Sequence record: NC_054895.1
Reading direction: 5' to 3' (one strand)
From: Escherichia phage vB_Eco_SLUR29
DNA length: 48,466 nt
Shown here: positions 23,181 to 27,467 of the stretch, piece by piece
How the letters are laid out: each line of letters begins with the position of its first letter
How positions within the stretch are numbered: the first letter of the stretch is position 1
Program-made: the position numbers and the translations under genes
The notes under the pieces: model-generated
The model's database searches: none
Told to the model about the DNA's origin: nothing
Seen by the model: only the letters and a program-made list of their open reading frames with translations

Positions 23181-23196
23181 AACTCCGCTAGTATTG

Positions 23197-23221
23197 CCCC
23201 GCTTATGCGGGGTTTTTTTTT
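23197..23221 (+). terminator. intrinsic terminator
   Basis: hairpin CCCCGCTTATGCGGGG followed by 9 T. Confidence 0.7.
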
Positions 23222-23250: not shown

Positions 23251-23269
23251 CATTAGCAAAAAGTGCTAT
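23251..23269 (-). promoter_or_regulatory. degenerate copy of 19-mer element (16/19), reverse orientation relative to adjacent + gene
   Basis: CATTAGCAAAAAGTGCTAT directly upstream of SD of tail fiber gene. Confidence 0.4.
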
Positions 23270-23286: not shown

Positions 23287-25254
23287 ATGGCGATTTACAG
23301 ACAAGGCCAAGCGTCTATGGACGCGCAAGGTTATGTAACTGGTTACGGTACAAAATGGCGTGAGCAATTAACCTTGATTCGCCCAGGTGCAACTATTTTC
23401 TTTCTTGCTCAACCTTTGCAAGCTGCTGTGATTACGGAAGTGATTAGCGATACAAGCATTCGCGCAATTACTACTGGCGGCGCGGTAGTCCAGAAGACAA
23501 ATTACCTGATCTTGCTTCATGACTCGTTAACGGTTGACGGTCTTGCGCAAGACGTAGCGGAAACGTTGCGTTATTACCAGGGGAAGGAATCGGAGTTTGC
23601 TGGATTTATTGAGATCATCAAGGATTTTGATTGGGATAAGCTACAGAAGATCCAGGAAGACGTAAAGACAAATGCTGACGCAGCCGCAGCAAGCCAGAAG
23701 GCAGCTAAAACTAGCGAGAATAACGCAAAGACAAGCGCAACAAATGCAGAGAATAGCAAGAAAGGTGCTGATACTGCAAAGGCTGCCGCTGAATCCGCGC
23801 GTGACGCTGCAAATACCGCAAAGACTGGCGCTGAAACTGCAAGAAAAGGCGCTGAAACTGCGCGTGATGCTGCGAATGCCGCAAAGACAGGTGCTGAAAG
23901 TGCTAGAGATCAAGCGGAGGAATACGCAAAGCAGGCCGCAGAACCTTACAAAGATTTATTGCAGCCTCTGCCTGACGTGTGGATACCATTTAATGATTCC
24001 CTGGATATGATCACCGGATTCTCGCCGTCATACAAAAAGATTGTCATAGGTGATGATGAGATCACGATGCCGGGCGACAAGATTGTCAAATTTAAACGTG
24101 CATCAACTGCAACATACATTAACAAATCAGGTATTCTTACCGTTGCAGCAATTGATGAACCGCGTTTTGAAAAAGATGGATTGCTGATTGAAGGGCAGAG
24201 AACAAACAACTTCATAAATAGCAATTCACCGAACAAATGGAATAGAAACGTAAACAGACTGGACGTATCAGCTGATTCTACAGATGAATTTGGTATAACT
24301 TCCGCTAAATTCACTTATAAAGAAAGTCAAGATACTGACCCGATCACAGCAATTTCAACTGGTACATCTCGCGTAGTGGATGTTGCGAATGGTGAGTATG
24401 GAACTATCTCAATACGCGCAAGAATCGGCGAGGAATATTCTTCACCAGTTAGGTTAAGATTGCGATTCTCCAAACTCAGTCCTGATGGACAAGGAAACAT
24501 ATTTATAGCTGATGTGATGCTTGATCTTGTCACTCTTGATGTGACTGGAGGGGTTAATTTGACGTATGATGTAAAGCAAGAATCAGGTGGATGGGTACTA
24601 TTCCAGGGTACATATAGAGCAACAGAAGATATAAAGATGTATGCTCGCGTTGAGATGATAGCAAGGGCAGGCCAGGATATTACCGCAGGTCAATTTATGA
24701 CTATAGCTACCGCCCAAGTTGAAAACGGATCATCTGCTTCGTCTCTGGTTATCACTGATGGAACTCCGGCAACAAGGGCAAGCGATATGGTTACATTGCC
24801 AATAAAAAACAACCTTTACAATTTGCCTTTTACAGTGCTTGTGGAAGCTCATAAAAACTGGAGTATAACGCCAAACGCAGCGCCGCGTGTTTTTGATACA
24901 GGCGGCCATCAAACCGGAGCGGCAATTGTTCTTGCTTTTGGGTCTGCTGAGGGAGATAATGACGGATTCCCTTATTGCGGTATAGGTAACTCAAACCGAA
25001 GGGTTTACGAGAATGCGAAACTAAAAAAGATGATCATGGGAATGAGAGTAAAGAGTGATTACAATAATTGCTGTGTAAGTAATGCCAGAATATCAAGCGA
25101 AACAAAAACGGAATGGAGATACATAAGATCGACGGCTACTATAAGGATTGGCGGACAAACAAGTACAGGCGAACGCCATCTTTTCGGGCACGTTAGAAAC
25201 TTCCGTATATGGCACAAGGCGCTAACAGATCATCAATTGGGGGAAATTGTTTAA
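23287..25254 (+). CDS. tail fiber protein
   Basis: 655 aa; A/K/T-rich coiled-coil repeat region typical of phage fibers; strong SD. Confidence 0.75.
   Translation: MAIYRQGQASMDAQGYVTGYGTKWREQLTLIRPGATIFFLAQPLQAAVITEVISDTSIRAITTGGAVVQKTNYLILLHDSLTVDGLAQDVAETLRYYQGKESEFAGFIEIIKDFDWDKLQKIQEDVKTNADAAAASQKAAKTSENNAKTSATNAENSKKGADTAKAAAESARDAANTAKTGAETARKGAETARDAANAAKTGAESARDQAEEYAKQAAEPYKDLLQPLPDVWIPFNDSLDMITGFSPSYKKIVIGDDEITMPGDKIVKFKRASTATYINKSGILTVAAIDEPRFEKDGLLIEGQRTNNFINSNSPNKWNRNVNRLDVSADSTDEFGITSAKFTYKESQDTDPITAISTGTSRVVDVANGEYGTISIRARIGEEYSSPVRLRLRFSKLSPDGQGNIFIADVMLDLVTLDVTGGVNLTYDVKQESGGWVLFQGTYRATEDIKMYARVEMIARAGQDITAGQFMTIATAQVENGSSASSLVITDGTPATRASDMVTLPIKNNLYNLPFTVLVEAHKNWSITPNAAPRVFDTGGHQTGAAIVLAFGSAEGDNDGFPYCGIGNSNRRVYENAKLKKMIMGMRVKSDYNNCCVSNARISSETKTEWRYIRSTATIRIGGQTSTGERHLFGHVRNFRIWHKALTDHQLGEIV
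23690..23925 (+). repeat. imperfect tandem coding repeats inside tail fiber gene
   Basis: repeated GCGCGTGACGCTGCAAAT..GCAAAGAC..GGCGCTGAAACTGC units encoding AxxAKTxAE repeats. Confidence 0.6.
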
Positions 25255-25532
25255 TGCGTGATTTAACATTAAAATTTGCAGACAAGGCCGAGTTTTCGGC
25301 CTTTTTAGGAAAAATTAATTGGGATGATAACGAATCCATTCAGGATGCAATCCTGCTCGATGTAATCGGCAATACTTATACAGTAATTGCACGATCTGAC
25401 GATGGCGAGGAGATTGCGCGAAAGAACGACGGCTATTTCGTTAATGTGCGAATCATTGATGATGAGTTTGATGCCGTAATTTTTAATGGCTACGTGGTTG
25501 AGTTAGATCAGCCGATTAGAGAATGGGCTTAA
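25254..25532 (+). CDS. hypothetical protein (92 aa), possible fiber accessory protein
   Basis: TAATG coupling to tail fiber gene. Confidence 0.45.
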   Translation: MRDLTLKFADKAEFSAFLGKINWDDNESIQDAILLDVIGNTYTVIARSDDGEEIARKNDGYFVNVRIIDDEFDAVIFNGYVVELDQPIREWA

Positions 25533-25544
25533 GGAGTTAGGAAA

Positions 25545-26282
25545 ATGGCTACAGTAACTGTTATACCTAATGATATAACGAGGCTGAAAAATGATGTTTC
25601 AACACTAAAACAGGATGTTGCTACTATTCCTGGTGATATAACGAAGCTGAAAAGTGATGTTTCGACACTAAAACAGGATGTTGCAGGAAAAGCATCAACT
25701 ACTGATGTTGACAATAAGTTGAAGTTGTATCTAAAACAAAATGATCTATCGTCCGAGTTGGATAGCGGAAGGTATGGTGGCAATTTTTACCCCCTGACTG
25801 GTAACGAGGCATTTTATTTGTTTAGACTAAACACAACCGCTCAATCAGCAAACTTATGGCTTGATCCAAATGCTGGAGTGTCGCAAGTTTTACGCTCCAC
25901 TTCCTCTTCTCGTTATAAGCGCAGCGTAGAATCGGTTATTGATGAATATGCGGATCTGATGCTTGAAATGCGTCCTGTGTGGTATCGGTCAACCTGTGAA
26001 AGCGACCGTAAAGATTGGGGATGGTACGGACTGATTGCAGAGGAAGTTGGAGAAATTGCGCCGGAGTACGTTCACTGGCGACCGCTGCAAGAAGGAGAAG
26101 ATCCTGCCATTGCTTCAAGTAATGGCATGGTGGCGGAAGGCGTTATGTATGACCGCCTAACTGTTCCACTGATTCACCACGTTAAGAAACTGAAAGCGGA
26201 AAACGATGAGATGAGAAAAGAAATTGACGAGCTAAAAGCGGTTGTAGCGGCACTGGTAAACAAACCAACCACGTTAGACTAA
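25545..26282 (+). CDS. fiber-like protein with C-terminal intramolecular-chaperone-like domain
   Basis: N-terminal 21-aa tandem repeat; C-terminal segment ...STCESDRKDWGWYGLIAEEVGEIAPEYV resembling peptidase S74 autocleaving chaperone domains. Confidence 0.55.
   Translation: MATVTVIPNDITRLKNDVSTLKQDVATIPGDITKLKSDVSTLKQDVAGKASTTDVDNKLKLYLKQNDLSSELDSGRYGGNFYPLTGNEAFYLFRLNTTAQSANLWLDPNAGVSQVLRSTSSSRYKRSVESVIDEYADLMLEMRPVWYRSTCESDRKDWGWYGLIAEEVGEIAPEYVHWRPLQEGEDPAIASSNGMVAEGVMYDRLTVPLIHHVKKLKAENDEMRKEIDELKAVVAALVNKPTTLD
25569..25694 (+). repeat. 2 x 63-bp direct tandem repeat within CDS
   Basis: about 90% identical units encoding DITRLKNDVSTLKQDVATIPG / DITKLKSDVSTLKQDVAGKAS. Confidence 0.85.
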
Positions 26283-26313
26283 AAAAAGCCCCGCATATGC
26301 GGGGCTTTTTGTT
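26281..26313. terminator. bidirectional intrinsic terminator
   Basis: hairpin AGCCCCGCATATGCGGGGCT with A-run upstream and T-run downstream. Confidence 0.7.
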
Positions 26314-26314
26314 A

Positions 26315-26767
26315 TCAGAATGGTATATCGTCGTCAAAGTCAATCGGAGGCTGATTGCTTTGCTGCGGCTGCTGTTGAGTATTTTGTTGCTGTTGCTGTT
26401 GTGGTTGCCCCCAGCCTCCTTGCGTTCGCTGCTGATATTGTTGCTGGCTTTCACCTCTCTGGCTAAATAGCAAGTTTGCAAATCCGCCAGGCTGCACGGT
26501 GCTGTAAATCTTTCCGTTGTATTCTCGCGTTTCAACTCGCAAGGTATCGCAGGAAACAGAAACAACCTTGCCTACCTGGAACGCCTCGGCATACCAACCA
26601 TTCAGGCCGTCTGTTTTCGCGTTAAAGAAAAACACATAGTTTGTATACTGCCAATTTCCCTCTCGGTCTTTGTATCGCTCGGAAAGCTCAATAACATATA
26701 GCGTGCTGCCGTTAGGCATTTGCTTTACTTTTGGCTCTTTTCGAATCTCACCTGTAATAACGTGCAT
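26315..26767 (-). CDS. ssb: single-stranded DNA-binding protein
   Basis: OB-fold-like N-terminus, Gly/Gln-rich linker, acidic C-terminal tail DFDDDIPF; AGGAG SD before ATG 26767. Confidence 0.8.
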   Translation of the reverse strand: MHVITGEIRKEPKVKQMPNGSTLYVIELSERYKDREGNWQYTNYVFFFNAKTDGLNGWYAEAFQVGKVVSVSCDTLRVETREYNGKIYSTVQPGGFANLLFSQRGESQQQYQQRTQGGWGQPQQQQQQNTQQQPQQSNQPPIDFDDDIPF

Positions 26768-26783
26768 TTTGTTTTCTCCTATG

Positions 26784-26806
26784 ACAAAAGGGGCGCAAGC
26801 GCCCCG
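26784..26806 (-). terminator. intercistronic hairpin (attenuator) between erf and ssb
   Basis: minus-strand hairpin GGGGCGCTTGCGCCCC followed by TTTTG. Confidence 0.4.
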
Positions 26807-26810
26807 TTTA

Positions 26811-27467
<657 letters not shown>

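What the first reader, a model, noticed from the sequence alone, without database searches (positions are those of the whole stretch)
25545..26282. Short fiber-like protein with a 63-bp tandem duplication and a C-terminal intramolecular-chaperone-like domain
The 245-aa product begins with two copies of a 21-aa repeat encoded by a 2 x 63-bp tandem duplication (25569-25694, about 90% identical). It ends with a segment (...STCESDRKDWGWYGLIAEEVGEIAPEYV...) resembling the autocleaving C-terminal chaperone domains of phage fibers and tailspikes. Such a domain on a very short fiber, downstream of a separate 655-aa tail fiber, suggests a modular receptor-binding accessory whose repeat number may vary.
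Basis: partly seen in the sequence, partly recalled or inferred. Interest (0 to 1): 0.45.

Follow-up and report, generated by a model that had tools for sequence, protein, structure and literature searches.

The report
Small self-cleaving distal tail-fiber subunit
This gene of a T1-like coliphage most likely encodes the small end-piece of a two-part side tail fiber, folded by a self-cleaving C-terminal chaperone domain; it is an ordinary kind of phage protein, unusual only for its very small size and for being knocked out in many laboratory isolates.

Summary
ORF 25545-26282 (+) encodes 245 aa with a good ribosome-binding site and a terminator. It starts with two 21-aa units from a 63-bp direct duplication (54/63 nt, 17/21 aa). 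Each unit is three heptads of an unbroken coiled coil.

The C-terminal 126 aa are a genuine intramolecular chaperone (Peptidase_S74) domain. Pfam scores it just above cut-off. A family profile hits the DT57C LtfA chaperone domain and the MyRF domain, and the fold search agrees. The Ser120/Lys125 dyad is conserved.

The window is a Warwickvirus (Drexlerviridae). The exact protein is already in GenBank (phage vB_Eco_SLUR29) and UniRef calls it "Peptidase S74 domain-containing".

Context changes the interpretation. The gene is third in a conserved module: 655-aa proximal fiber, 92-aa protein, distal protein. This module also occurs in lambdoid, Seuratvirus, Dhillonvirus and T5-like phages. All distal proteins share an N-terminal motif (MxTxTxIPxDIxxLK) but have different bodies of 221-583 aa. 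This one is the minimal form, with no receptor-binding-sized domain.

Repeat number does vary among relatives (one copy, two copies, or a 14-aa deletion). At least 11 related isolates carry null alleles of this gene (7 distinct mutations), while their proximal fiber gene looks intact.

Verdict: ordinary member of a known kind, with modest interest.

The parts
23287..25254 (+). Proximal lateral tail fiber gene (655 aa). It has a lineage-specific N-terminal anchor, an Ala/Gln-rich coiled region, a GTA-head-spike-fiber-like domain and a weak Laminin_G_3-like C-terminus.
   Evidence: ORF and start. PHROG tail protein E 7e-202. NCBIfam GTA_spike_fiber 50.1 bits, residues 308-506 of the 663-aa ORF. 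Pfam Laminin_G_3 is weak and below cut-off. The C-terminal ~465 aa are 60% identical to IrisVonRoten Gp22.
25254..25532 (+). 92-aa gene whose ATG overlaps the fiber stop codon (TAATG). It is a conserved partner of the proximal fiber with unknown role.
25545..26282 (+). The finding: 245-aa distal subunit with a C-terminal intramolecular chaperone domain.
   Evidence: The exact sequence is YP_010064858.1 of phage vB_Eco_SLUR29.
25545..25589 (+). N-terminal motif MATVTVIPNDITRLK (aa 1-15), the presumed docking peptide shared by all distal subunits of this module.
   Evidence: Same motif heads proteins of 221-583 aa with different bodies. 12/17 identical to IrisVonRoten Gp24. Absent from the one-piece fiber of L008.
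25562..25684 (+). Two 63-bp / 21-aa tandem units (25562-25621 and 25625-25684 are the matched cores). Each is three heptads of the coiled coil, and each includes a copy of IPxDITxLK.
   Evidence: Copy number varies in relatives.
25575..25685 (+). Predicted continuous alpha-helix / coiled coil, aa 11-47.
   Evidence: AF2 helix 11-47, pLDDT about 80-86. Heptad a/d positions 11/12 hydrophobic. Weak similarity to the P22 gp26 needle, Lpp and fibritin trimeric coils.
25722..25901 (+). Segment before the chaperone domain (aa 60-119): short helices plus about 45 conserved residues that would form the C-terminal end of the mature protein.
   Evidence: Conserved in the family. Low monomer confidence. 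Also precedes the chaperone domain in the one-piece 1187-aa fiber of L008. dN/dS 0.12-0.35.
25790..25794 (+). C5 homopolymer. Relatives JLBYU19, AV105 and orkinos have C6 here, which frameshifts the gene.
25902..25919 (+). Predicted autocleavage site: Ser120 (25902-25904) as nucleophile and Lys125 (25917-25919) as base, with the cut between Thr119 and Ser120.
   Evidence: Aligned to MyRF position 587 (Ala in the crystallised mutant) and Lys592, and to the SGIEYK motif of DT57C LtfA. Lys125 is invariant and Ser120 is >= 90% conserved in 61 sequences.
25902..26279 (+). Intramolecular chaperone / Peptidase_S74 domain (aa 120-245), including the C-terminal helix 202-238.
   Evidence: It is the most constrained part of the gene (dN/dS 0-0.17).
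26283..26310 (.). Hairpin flanked by an A-run and a T-run, so probably a terminator in both directions, between this gene and the convergent SSB gene (26315-26818, minus strand).
   Evidence: Fold -21.3 kcal/mol, z -6.05. Rfam gives only sub-threshold terminator-type hits here.

Best explanation
The 245-aa protein is the distal subunit of a two-part lateral tail fiber, in its smallest known form.

Inferred mechanism:
1. [quoted passage not shown]
2. This domain nucleates folding of the short upstream segment (aa 60-119) and the N-terminal trimeric coiled coil (aa 11-47).
3. The Ser120/Lys125 dyad then cuts between Thr119 and Ser120 and the 14.5-kDa chaperone is released.
4. The mature 13-kDa x 3 stub docks through its N-terminal motif (MATVTVIPNDITRLK) onto the conserved C-terminal part of the 655-aa proximal fiber. 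The 92-aa protein may take part in this joint.

The stub has no receptor-binding-sized domain, so it probably acts as a conserved end-piece or minor adhesin. The main specificity determinant is more likely the proximal fiber, which carries the lectin-like domains and is the more variable partner.

The 63-bp duplication adds exactly three heptads to the stalk (about 3 nm, taking a rise of roughly 0.15 nm per helical residue). Such units are gained and lost by recombination between repeats.

Shown: domain identity, conserved catalytic residues, gene-order conservation, the shared N-terminal motif, purifying selection, copy-number variation.
Inferred: trimerisation, cleavage, docking, and the role in adsorption.
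For: Chaperone domain:
- Pfam S74; profile hits to the DT57C LtfA and MyRF domains with Ser120/Lys125 aligned to the catalytic positions.
- Confident AF2 model of residues 120-240 whose best fold match is the solved MyRF ICA domain (E 1.7e-5); the K1F (3gw6) and GA-1 (3gud) chaperones follow only weakly (E 0.03-0.2).

Module:
- Proximal fiber, 92-aa gene and this gene are syntenic and homologous in Drexlerviridae, lambdoid PhiR49_1, Seuratvirus KurtStettler, and T5-like HMD-P4 and IrisVonRoten; Dhillonvirus KarlBarth has the same order, with its third gene split in two ORFs.
- Conservation spans the proximal C-terminus (45-60% aa), the 92-aa protein (49-59%) and only the first 15-75 aa of the distal protein.
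- In 148 loci with the 92-aa gene, the next gene either starts with the motif (bodies of 221-245, 330-351, 510 and 574-583 aa) or is missing.
- Published AlphaFold-Multimer models place IrisVonRoten Gp24 on the end of the proximal fiber Gp22 (PMC11990801).
- DT57C LtfB is a precedent for a second chaperone-bearing fiber protein attached through its N-terminus (PMC4728585).

Functional gene:
- dN/dS is 0.18-0.31 against close relatives.
- Synonymous sites are saturated (pS about 0.77) against homologs that are still 59-66% identical in protein.

Not an obligatory chaperone for the proximal fiber:
- 42 of 80 loci from the search seeded with the 92-aa protein lack any distal gene.
- 11 isolates with null alleles keep a proximal gene that matches full-length in one piece under a single annotated CDS.
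Against: - No direct evidence of virion incorporation. The only proteome of a close relative (swan01) detected five proteins in total and none from this locus.
- Docking is inferred from co-conservation and from a published prediction for a homologous module. I could not run a multimer prediction.
- The segment before the chaperone domain is modelled with low confidence, so the shape of the mature tip is unknown.
- The Pfam score is marginal (22.8 against 22).
- A distal subunit that is more conserved than the proximal fiber is atypical for receptor-binding tips.
- Frequent null alleles show the gene is dispensable in laboratory propagation.
Confidence: 0.6

Rival explanations
1. Trans-acting chaperone. 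The protein is not part of the virion and uses its S74 domain to help the upstream 655-aa fiber fold. This matches the GenBank labels 'putative lateral tail fiber chaperone' and 'chaperone of endosialidase'.
For: Relatives carry these annotations. The protein is small and has no recognisable receptor-binding domain. It lies directly downstream of the fiber, where phage fiber chaperones are usually encoded.
Against: S74 domains are, as far as I know, cis-acting and cut themselves off the protein they fold (recalled from the K1F endosialidase work, not read here). The protein conserves its own upstream segment and a cleavage dyad. There are no Tfa or gp38-type family hits. The proximal fiber plus the 92-aa gene exist without it in 42 of 80 sampled loci. 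Eleven isolates with null alleles retain a proximal gene that matches full-length in one piece. The same N-terminal motif heads large fibers with receptor-binding domains, such as IrisVonRoten Gp24.
Confidence: 0.1
2. Evolutionary leftover. The ORF is the stranded 3' end of an ancestral one-piece fiber gene, left behind when the three-gene cassette or a new fiber body recombined in, and it is decaying.
For: A sister phage (L008/L007) with nearly identical flanking genes has a single 1187-aa fiber. Its last 225 aa are 69% identical to residues 14-245. The PHROG match is to the C-terminal 238 positions of a 1385-position profile. Eleven related isolates carry frameshifts or stop codons.
Against: It has its own Shine-Dalgarno site and ATG. 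The N-terminal motif is absent from the one-piece fiber but shared with other distal subunits. It is maintained as a stand-alone gene in four phage lineages with dN/dS well below 1 and saturated synonymous sites. The null alleles are all different and recent, with no secondary decay.
Confidence: 0.08
3. Independent short fiber. The mature trimer attaches somewhere other than the proximal fiber, for example the tail tip or collar, and binds its own receptor.
For: Fiber-like build: trimeric coiled coil plus a chaperone domain. The segment before the chaperone domain evolves faster than the chaperone itself among close relatives (pN 0.04-0.07 against 0-0.01).
Against: In every locus examined (the 148 loci surveyed plus the annotated records) a stand-alone gene of this kind follows the proximal fiber and the 92-aa gene. 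The N-terminal motif co-occurs with the conserved proximal C-terminus across phages whose tail tips and collars are unrelated: T1-like, lambda-like, T5-like and Seuratvirus.
Confidence: 0.12

Closest known systems
IrisVonRoten (Bas32, Tequintavirus) lateral tail fiber module Gp22-Gp23-Gp24 (PMC11990801)
   Same: Same gene order. The proximal fiber C-terminus is 60% identical over about 465 aa and the 92-aa protein is 49% identical. The distal protein starts with the same motif (MVTKTVIPTDITKLK against MATVTVIPNDITRLK) and ends in an S74 domain.
   Different: Gp24 is 574 aa and is described as a T-shaped fiber with two receptor-binding domains. The window protein has only a coiled coil and about 60 residues before the cleavage site, with no such domain.
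DT57C / DT571/2 LtfA-LtfB branched L-shaped tail fibers (PMC4728585, PMC10713586; PDB 8hqz)
   Same: A second fiber protein with its own C-terminal autocleaving chaperone domain attaches through its N-terminus to the first fiber. The family profile aligns to the LtfA chaperone domain.
   Different: In DT57C both proteins carry chaperone domains, and LtfB uses a phiEco32 gp15-like N-terminus of about 45 aa, not shown to be related to this motif (not tested). There is no 92-aa gene in that description. LtfB is a proven host-range determinant.
C-terminal intramolecular chaperone domains: K1F endosialidase (3gw6), GA-1 neck appendage (3gud), T5 Ltf/pb1, MyRF (7dc3)
   Same: Fold, the Ser-x4-Lys dyad, the GLIAxE core and a C-terminal helix.
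   Different: Those domains sit on long fibers or spikes, or on a eukaryotic transcription factor. Here the domain makes up half of a 245-aa protein. In BFVD most matches are 400-1200 aa.
One-piece lateral tail fiber of sister Drexlerviridae (IMG/VR UViG 3300045988_025133, locus L008)
   Same: Same N-terminal virion anchor as the window's proximal fiber. Its last 225 aa are 69% identical to residues 14-245 of the window protein.
   Different: It is a single 1187-aa polypeptide with no 92-aa gene and no docking motif.
Lambda side tail fiber gene stf, frameshifted in laboratory lambda PaPa (recalled from Hendrix and Duda 1992; not read here)
   Same: An accessory side-fiber gene under purifying selection in nature that is repeatedly inactivated in laboratory-propagated stocks.
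   Different: This is an analogy only. In lambda the fiber gene itself is hit. Here only the small distal gene is hit and the proximal fiber stays intact.

Membership tests
Peptidase_S74 / intramolecular chaperone auto-processing domain | Sequence match to PF13884 above the gathering score | tested here: met
   22.8 bits against a cut-off of 22, residues 120-176 covering profile positions 1-57 of 58. This is marginal. Other distal subunits of the module score 46.9-55 bits.
Peptidase_S74 / intramolecular chaperone auto-processing domain | Catalytic Ser and Lys five residues apart at the N-terminal edge of the domain | tested here: met
   Ser120 and Lys125 align to MyRF 587/592 and to the DT57C LtfA SGIEYK motif. 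Lys125 is invariant and Ser120 is >= 90% conserved in 61 sequences.
Peptidase_S74 / intramolecular chaperone auto-processing domain | Fold of solved chaperone domains, ending in a long C-terminal helix | tested here: met
   AF2 pLDDT >= 90 for residues 120-240 with helix 202-238. Foldseek gives 7dc3 at E 1.7e-5 and probability 1.0; 3gw6 and 3gud follow only weakly (E 0.03-0.2).
Peptidase_S74 / intramolecular chaperone auto-processing domain | Trimerisation-dependent self-cleavage and release of the domain | not testable with these tools
   Needs expression of wild type against S120A/K125A, or virion mass spectrometry.
Distal subunit of a two-part lateral tail fiber (IrisVonRoten Gp24 type) | Encoded directly after the proximal fiber gene and the 92-aa gene | tested here: met
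   Window 23287-25254, 25254-25532, 25545-26282. Same order in L001-L005, L094 and L096.
Distal subunit of a two-part lateral tail fiber (IrisVonRoten Gp24 type) | Shared N-terminal motif M[AVT]TxTxIPxD[IV]xxLK | tested here: met
   Present in the window protein and in every gene found between the 92-aa gene and the next conserved gene, across 148 loci.
Distal subunit of a two-part lateral tail fiber (IrisVonRoten Gp24 type) | A receptor-binding domain between the N-terminal adaptor and the chaperone domain | tested here: not met
   Only about 60 residues (60-119) lie there. They have no family or fold match and low model confidence.
Distal subunit of a two-part lateral tail fiber (IrisVonRoten Gp24 type) | Physical attachment to the proximal fiber in the virion | not testable with these tools
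   No multimer prediction is available here. The published model exists only for the IrisVonRoten homologs (PMC11990801).
Separate tail fiber assembly chaperones (lambda Tfa / Mu gpU / T4 gp38 type) | Sequence membership in a known Tfa-type family | tested here: not met
DT57C LtfB-type branch fiber | N-terminal ~45 aa related to phiEco32 gp15 | not tested
Only the LtfA chaperone domain was matched.

The most novel reading that the evidence does not exclude
The minimal distal subunit is a conserved, removable cap on the end of the lateral fiber that tunes adsorption, and is not a receptor-binding tip. On this reading the gene behaves like a contingency locus. Heptad-unit gain and loss changes its length. 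Loss-of-function mutations, including slippage in the C5 tract at 25790-25794, switch it off, exposing or re-tuning the lectin-like proximal fiber. Loss would be positively selected on rough laboratory hosts. This would explain why 7 distinct null mutations hit this 0.74-kb gene and none were seen in the 2-kb proximal gene. If null mutations fell in proportion to gene length, that split would have a probability of about 1e-4.
Probability: 0.2. Interest if true: 0.55.

Novelty: new member of a known kind. Interest (0 to 1): 0.3.

Why it matters
It matters mainly for annotation and phage engineering. Relatives of this protein are labelled "hypothetical", "tail fiber protein", "chaperone of endosialidase" or "lateral tail fiber chaperone". 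The context evidence argues for one reading: an exchangeable distal subunit defined by a 15-aa N-terminal motif that mates with a conserved proximal fiber and 92-aa module in at least five coliphage groups.

That motif is a natural plug-in point for swapping fiber tips between T1-like, lambda-like and T5-like phages.

The minimal form is common in E. coli prophages: two protein clusters hold 2,928 and 650 member sequences. It shows that a chaperone domain can serve a mature product of only 119 residues.

The high rate of null alleles in sequenced isolates warns that reference genomes of laboratory-propagated Warwickvirus phages may not show the natural fiber. It also offers an easy experimental handle: compare intact and null isolates.

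Tried and rejected
- Tandem Repeats Finder did not report the 63-bp repeat. The repeat finder and BLAST did.
- A single-sequence search of PDB sequences found only coiled-coil noise. The family profile was needed.
- It also has no Pfam, NCBIfam or PADLOC hit.
- The swan01 virion proteome detected only five proteins, too few to say anything about this locus.
- Rfam found only sub-threshold terminator-like matches on the hairpin at 26280-26313. PADLOC found nothing meaningful for the 245-aa protein.
- The search for related loci with the single 92-aa sequence found only 2 loci. An alignment was needed to reach 80.
- Programmed +1 frameshifting at the C6 alleles was considered and rejected. Re-pairing CCC to CCC is possible, but there is no stimulatory element, and the other null alleles are ordinary stops and indels elsewhere in the gene.
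- The minus-strand ORFs overlapping the gene (25529-25783 and 26182-26565) were treated as spurious. They mirror the repeat or overlap the SSB terminator and were not tested further.

Full report
**What is there**

The ORF runs from ATG 25545 to TAA 26282 on the + strand and encodes 245 aa. An AAGGAG site lies 8 nt upstream. A strong hairpin follows at 26283-26310 (-21.3 kcal/mol, z = -6.05). It separates the gene from the convergent SSB gene.

The 63-bp direct duplication is real. The matched cores are 25562-25621 and 25625-25684, with 54/60 identical bases. Over full units the figures are 54/63 nt and 17/21 aa. Tandem Repeats Finder missed it.

The two 21-aa units lie in one unbroken heptad pattern. 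The a/d positions of residues 11-46 are 11/12 hydrophobic, so each unit is exactly three heptads. AF2 models residues 11-47 as one helix. The nearest sequence analogies are trimeric coiled coils: the P22 gp26 needle, Lpp and fibritin.

**The C-terminal domain**

- Pfam Peptidase_S74 matches residues 120-176 at 22.8 bits, just above the 22-bit cut-off.
- A profile of 15 family members hits the chaperone domain of DT57C LtfA (8hqz_d 953-1074, E 1.2e-4) and the MyRF domain (7dc3) over residues ~104-236.
- In those alignments Ser120 and Lys125 fall on the catalytic Ser/Lys positions. Lys125 is invariant and Ser120 is >= 90% conserved in a 61-sequence alignment.
- The AF2 model has pLDDT >= 90 across residues 120-240. 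Its best PDB match is 7dc3 (E 1.7e-5); 3gw6 (K1F endosialidase chaperone) and 3gud (GA-1) follow only weakly (E 0.03-0.2).
- 145 BFVD matches reach E <= 0.001; nearly all of the named ones among the 50 listed are S74/chaperone-domain or tail-fiber-type proteins, most of them 400-1200 aa long.

The predicted cut between Thr119 and Ser120 would give fragments of 13.0 and 14.5 kDa.

**Where it comes from**

The window is a Warwickvirus (Drexlerviridae, Tempevirinae). Its first 24 kb are 98.7% identical to phage tunus. The exact protein is YP_010064858.1 of phage vB_Eco_SLUR29, and UniRef names it "Peptidase S74 domain-containing protein". Relatives are labelled "hypothetical", "chaperone of endosialidase", "tail fiber domain-containing protein" or, in the BASEL collection, "putative lateral tail fiber chaperone". 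The domain content is therefore already in public annotation.

**Context**

The gene is third in a tight module:
- the proximal lateral tail fiber, 23287-25254, 655 aa from the ATG that has an AGGAGG site;
- a 92-aa gene whose ATG overlaps the fiber stop codon as TAATG;
- this gene.

The same three-gene order, with homologous parts, occurs in several groups:
- other Drexlerviridae (PeterMerian, KarlJaspers);
- lambdoid phage PhiR49_1;
- Seuratvirus KurtStettler;
- Dhillonvirus KarlBarth;
- T5-like HMD-P4 and IrisVonRoten.

What is conserved across these lineages is the junction:
- the C-terminal ~465-520 aa of the proximal fiber (45-60% identity);
- the 92-aa protein (49-59%);
- only the first 15-75 aa of the third protein.

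The proximal N-terminus is lineage-specific, and the body of the third protein varies.

I surveyed 148 loci that carry the 92-aa gene. The next gene either begins with M[AVT]TxTxIPxD[IV]xxLK or there is no such gene.
- With the motif, body sizes are 221-245, 330-351, 510 or 574-583 aa.
- Almost all of these carry the chaperone domain. The two 330/340-aa proteins instead have a glycine-rich fiber-type body that scored no chaperone domain with my HMM.
- Where the gene is missing, a 97-aa membrane-like protein follows. This was the case in 42 of the 80 loci retrieved by the search seeded with the 92-aa protein, which are mostly lambdoid prophages.

The BASEL-2 paper models IrisVonRoten Gp24 (574 aa, same N-terminal motif) as a T-shaped distal fiber. 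In that model it is attached to the proximal fiber Gp22, whose C-terminus bears a galectin-like domain (PMC11990801). DT57C LtfA/LtfB is an older precedent for a second chaperone-bearing fiber protein attached through its N-terminus (PMC4728585).

A sister phage with nearly identical flanking genes (L008) has a one-piece 1187-aa fiber instead. It shares the window's N-terminal anchor, and its last 225 aa are 69% identical to residues 14-245 here. It has no docking motif and no 92-aa gene. This matches the PHROG hit to the C-terminal 238 positions of a 1385-position profile.

**Best reading**

The protein is the distal subunit of a two-part lateral fiber, reduced to adaptor motif, coiled coil, a ~60-residue end segment and the chaperone domain. 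The chaperone domain most likely acts in cis on this protein and not on the upstream fiber.

Three observations argue against an obligatory trans-chaperone role:
- many loci have the proximal fiber and the 92-aa gene but no S74 protein;
- isolates with null alleles keep a proximal gene that matches full-length in one piece;
- the same motif heads large fibers that carry receptor-binding domains.

It is also not a decaying remnant. dN/dS is 0.18-0.31 against close relatives and 0-0.17 in the chaperone domain. Synonymous sites are saturated (pS about 0.77) against homologs that are still 59-66% identical in protein.

**Repeat number**

- tunus, JLBYU19, AV105 and orkinos have two units;
- tonn, ityhuna and brachmannus have one, with different crossover points (tonn keeps unit 2, brachmannus a unit-1/unit-2 hybrid);
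- PeterMerian, L006 and JLBYU10 lack 42 bp (14 aa, two heptads).

More distant homologs differ by further indels in the coil, mostly of 7, 14 or 21 residues. All of the variants among close relatives (63 bp or 42 bp) keep the coiled-coil register.

**Unexpected: recurrent knock-outs**

At least 11 of roughly 35 distinct related GenBank genomes carry a disrupted copy, through 7 different mutations:

| Mutation | Phages |
|---|---|
| +C in the C5 tract (window 25790-25794) | JLBYU19, AV105, orkinos |
| +CC at gene nt 292 | JLBYU10 |
| -1 at gene nt 437 | ityhuna |
| -1 at gene nt 189 | brachmannus (an UNVERIFIED record) |
| Tyr175 to TAA | EC195, EC125, JLBYU07 |
| Glu167 to TAG | tuinn |
| Gly159 to TGA | Phunderstruck |

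The +C and Tyr175 alleles each occur on two different sequence backgrounds.

The 2.7-fold longer proximal gene gives a single full-length tblastn match under a single annotated CDS in all ~42 records. I did not translate each copy to check for in-frame stops. If null mutations fell in proportion to gene length, all seven landing in the distal gene would have a probability of about 1e-4.

The distal protein is also much more conserved (88-97% aa) than the proximal fiber (58-78%) among these phages. This is the reverse of what a specificity-determining tip would show.

I read this as loss of the end-piece being tolerated or favoured on laboratory hosts, most of them rough K-12. That would echo the stf frameshift of laboratory lambda, which I recall from memory and did not read here. 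It also points to the lectin-like proximal fiber as the likelier specificity determinant. This is inference.

**Limits**

- No multimer prediction, proteomics or biochemistry was available.
- The mature tip (residues 60-119) is modelled poorly.
- The 92-aa protein has a confident small alpha+beta model but no informative structural neighbour, so its part in the joint is unknown.

**Verdict**

It should be recast as a minimal distal subunit of a two-part lateral fiber, and the receptor-binding role is unproven. This is a known kind of protein, already annotated at the domain level. Interest is modest and comes from the shared docking motif, the very small mature product and the pattern of recurrent inactivation.

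Noticed in passing
window 25545-26282, notably the C5 tract at 25790-25794 and codons Gly159 (26019-26021), Glu167 (26043-26045) and Tyr175 (26067-26069); loci L087-L092, L177-L180: Eleven related GenBank phages carry null alleles of this gene, through 7 distinct frameshift or nonsense mutations. Two of these recur on different sequence backgrounds. The adjacent 2-kb proximal fiber gene gives a single full-length match in all of them. This suggests selection for loss of the distal subunit during laboratory propagation.
   Followed up: yes
window 23196-23213 and 26290-26307: The fiber module is bracketed by two nearly identical terminator hairpins, GCCCCGC(T/A)TATGCGGGG(T/C). These could double as recombination points for swapping the whole fiber cassette. 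Sister phage L008 has a different cassette between otherwise near-identical flanks.
   Followed up: partly
L008 1115-4678 (also L007): A sister Drexlerviridae genome encodes a one-piece 1187-aa lateral fiber. It has the same N-terminal anchor and a C-terminal coil, tip and chaperone cassette 69% identical to the window's separate 245-aa protein. It has no 92-aa gene.
   Followed up: partly
window 25254-25532: The 92-aa gene, translationally coupled to the fiber gene, occurs in 175 phage records from six or more phage groups, including distant rV5-like hits. Its model is a confident small alpha+beta fold with no informative structural or family match, so its function is unknown.
   Followed up: partly
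window 23287-25254: The proximal fiber is much more divergent between near-identical Warwickvirus genomes (58-78% aa) than the distal protein (88-97%). It contains an Ala/Gln-rich repetitive stretch, roughly aa 130-230, that is annotated as 'repeat_region' in tonn, tunus and orkinos. The ORF lister's GTG start at 23263 is probably wrong; ATG 23287 has the AGGAGG site.
   Followed up: partly
L095 4792-5085 and 5177-8626; L003 6716-7009: In lambdoid prophages the fiber module is followed by a conserved 97-aa hydrophobic protein (MDISPLLHALCAVAAQ...). In Lambda_2G7a the sitABCD manganese/iron transporter genes come next, as cargo beside the fiber locus.
   Followed up: no
L096 4770-5066 and 5059-5649 (Dhillonvirus KarlBarth): The distal gene with the same N-terminal motif is annotated as two overlapping ORFs of 98 and 196 aa. 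This may be another frameshifted distal subunit in a K-12-isolated phage.
   Followed up: no
L136 581-1573, L137 3961-4983: Two prophage loci attach the same docking motif to a 330-340-aa glycine-rich fiber-type body in which my chaperone-domain HMM found no match. The adaptor may therefore not be tied to chaperone-bearing tips.
   Followed up: no
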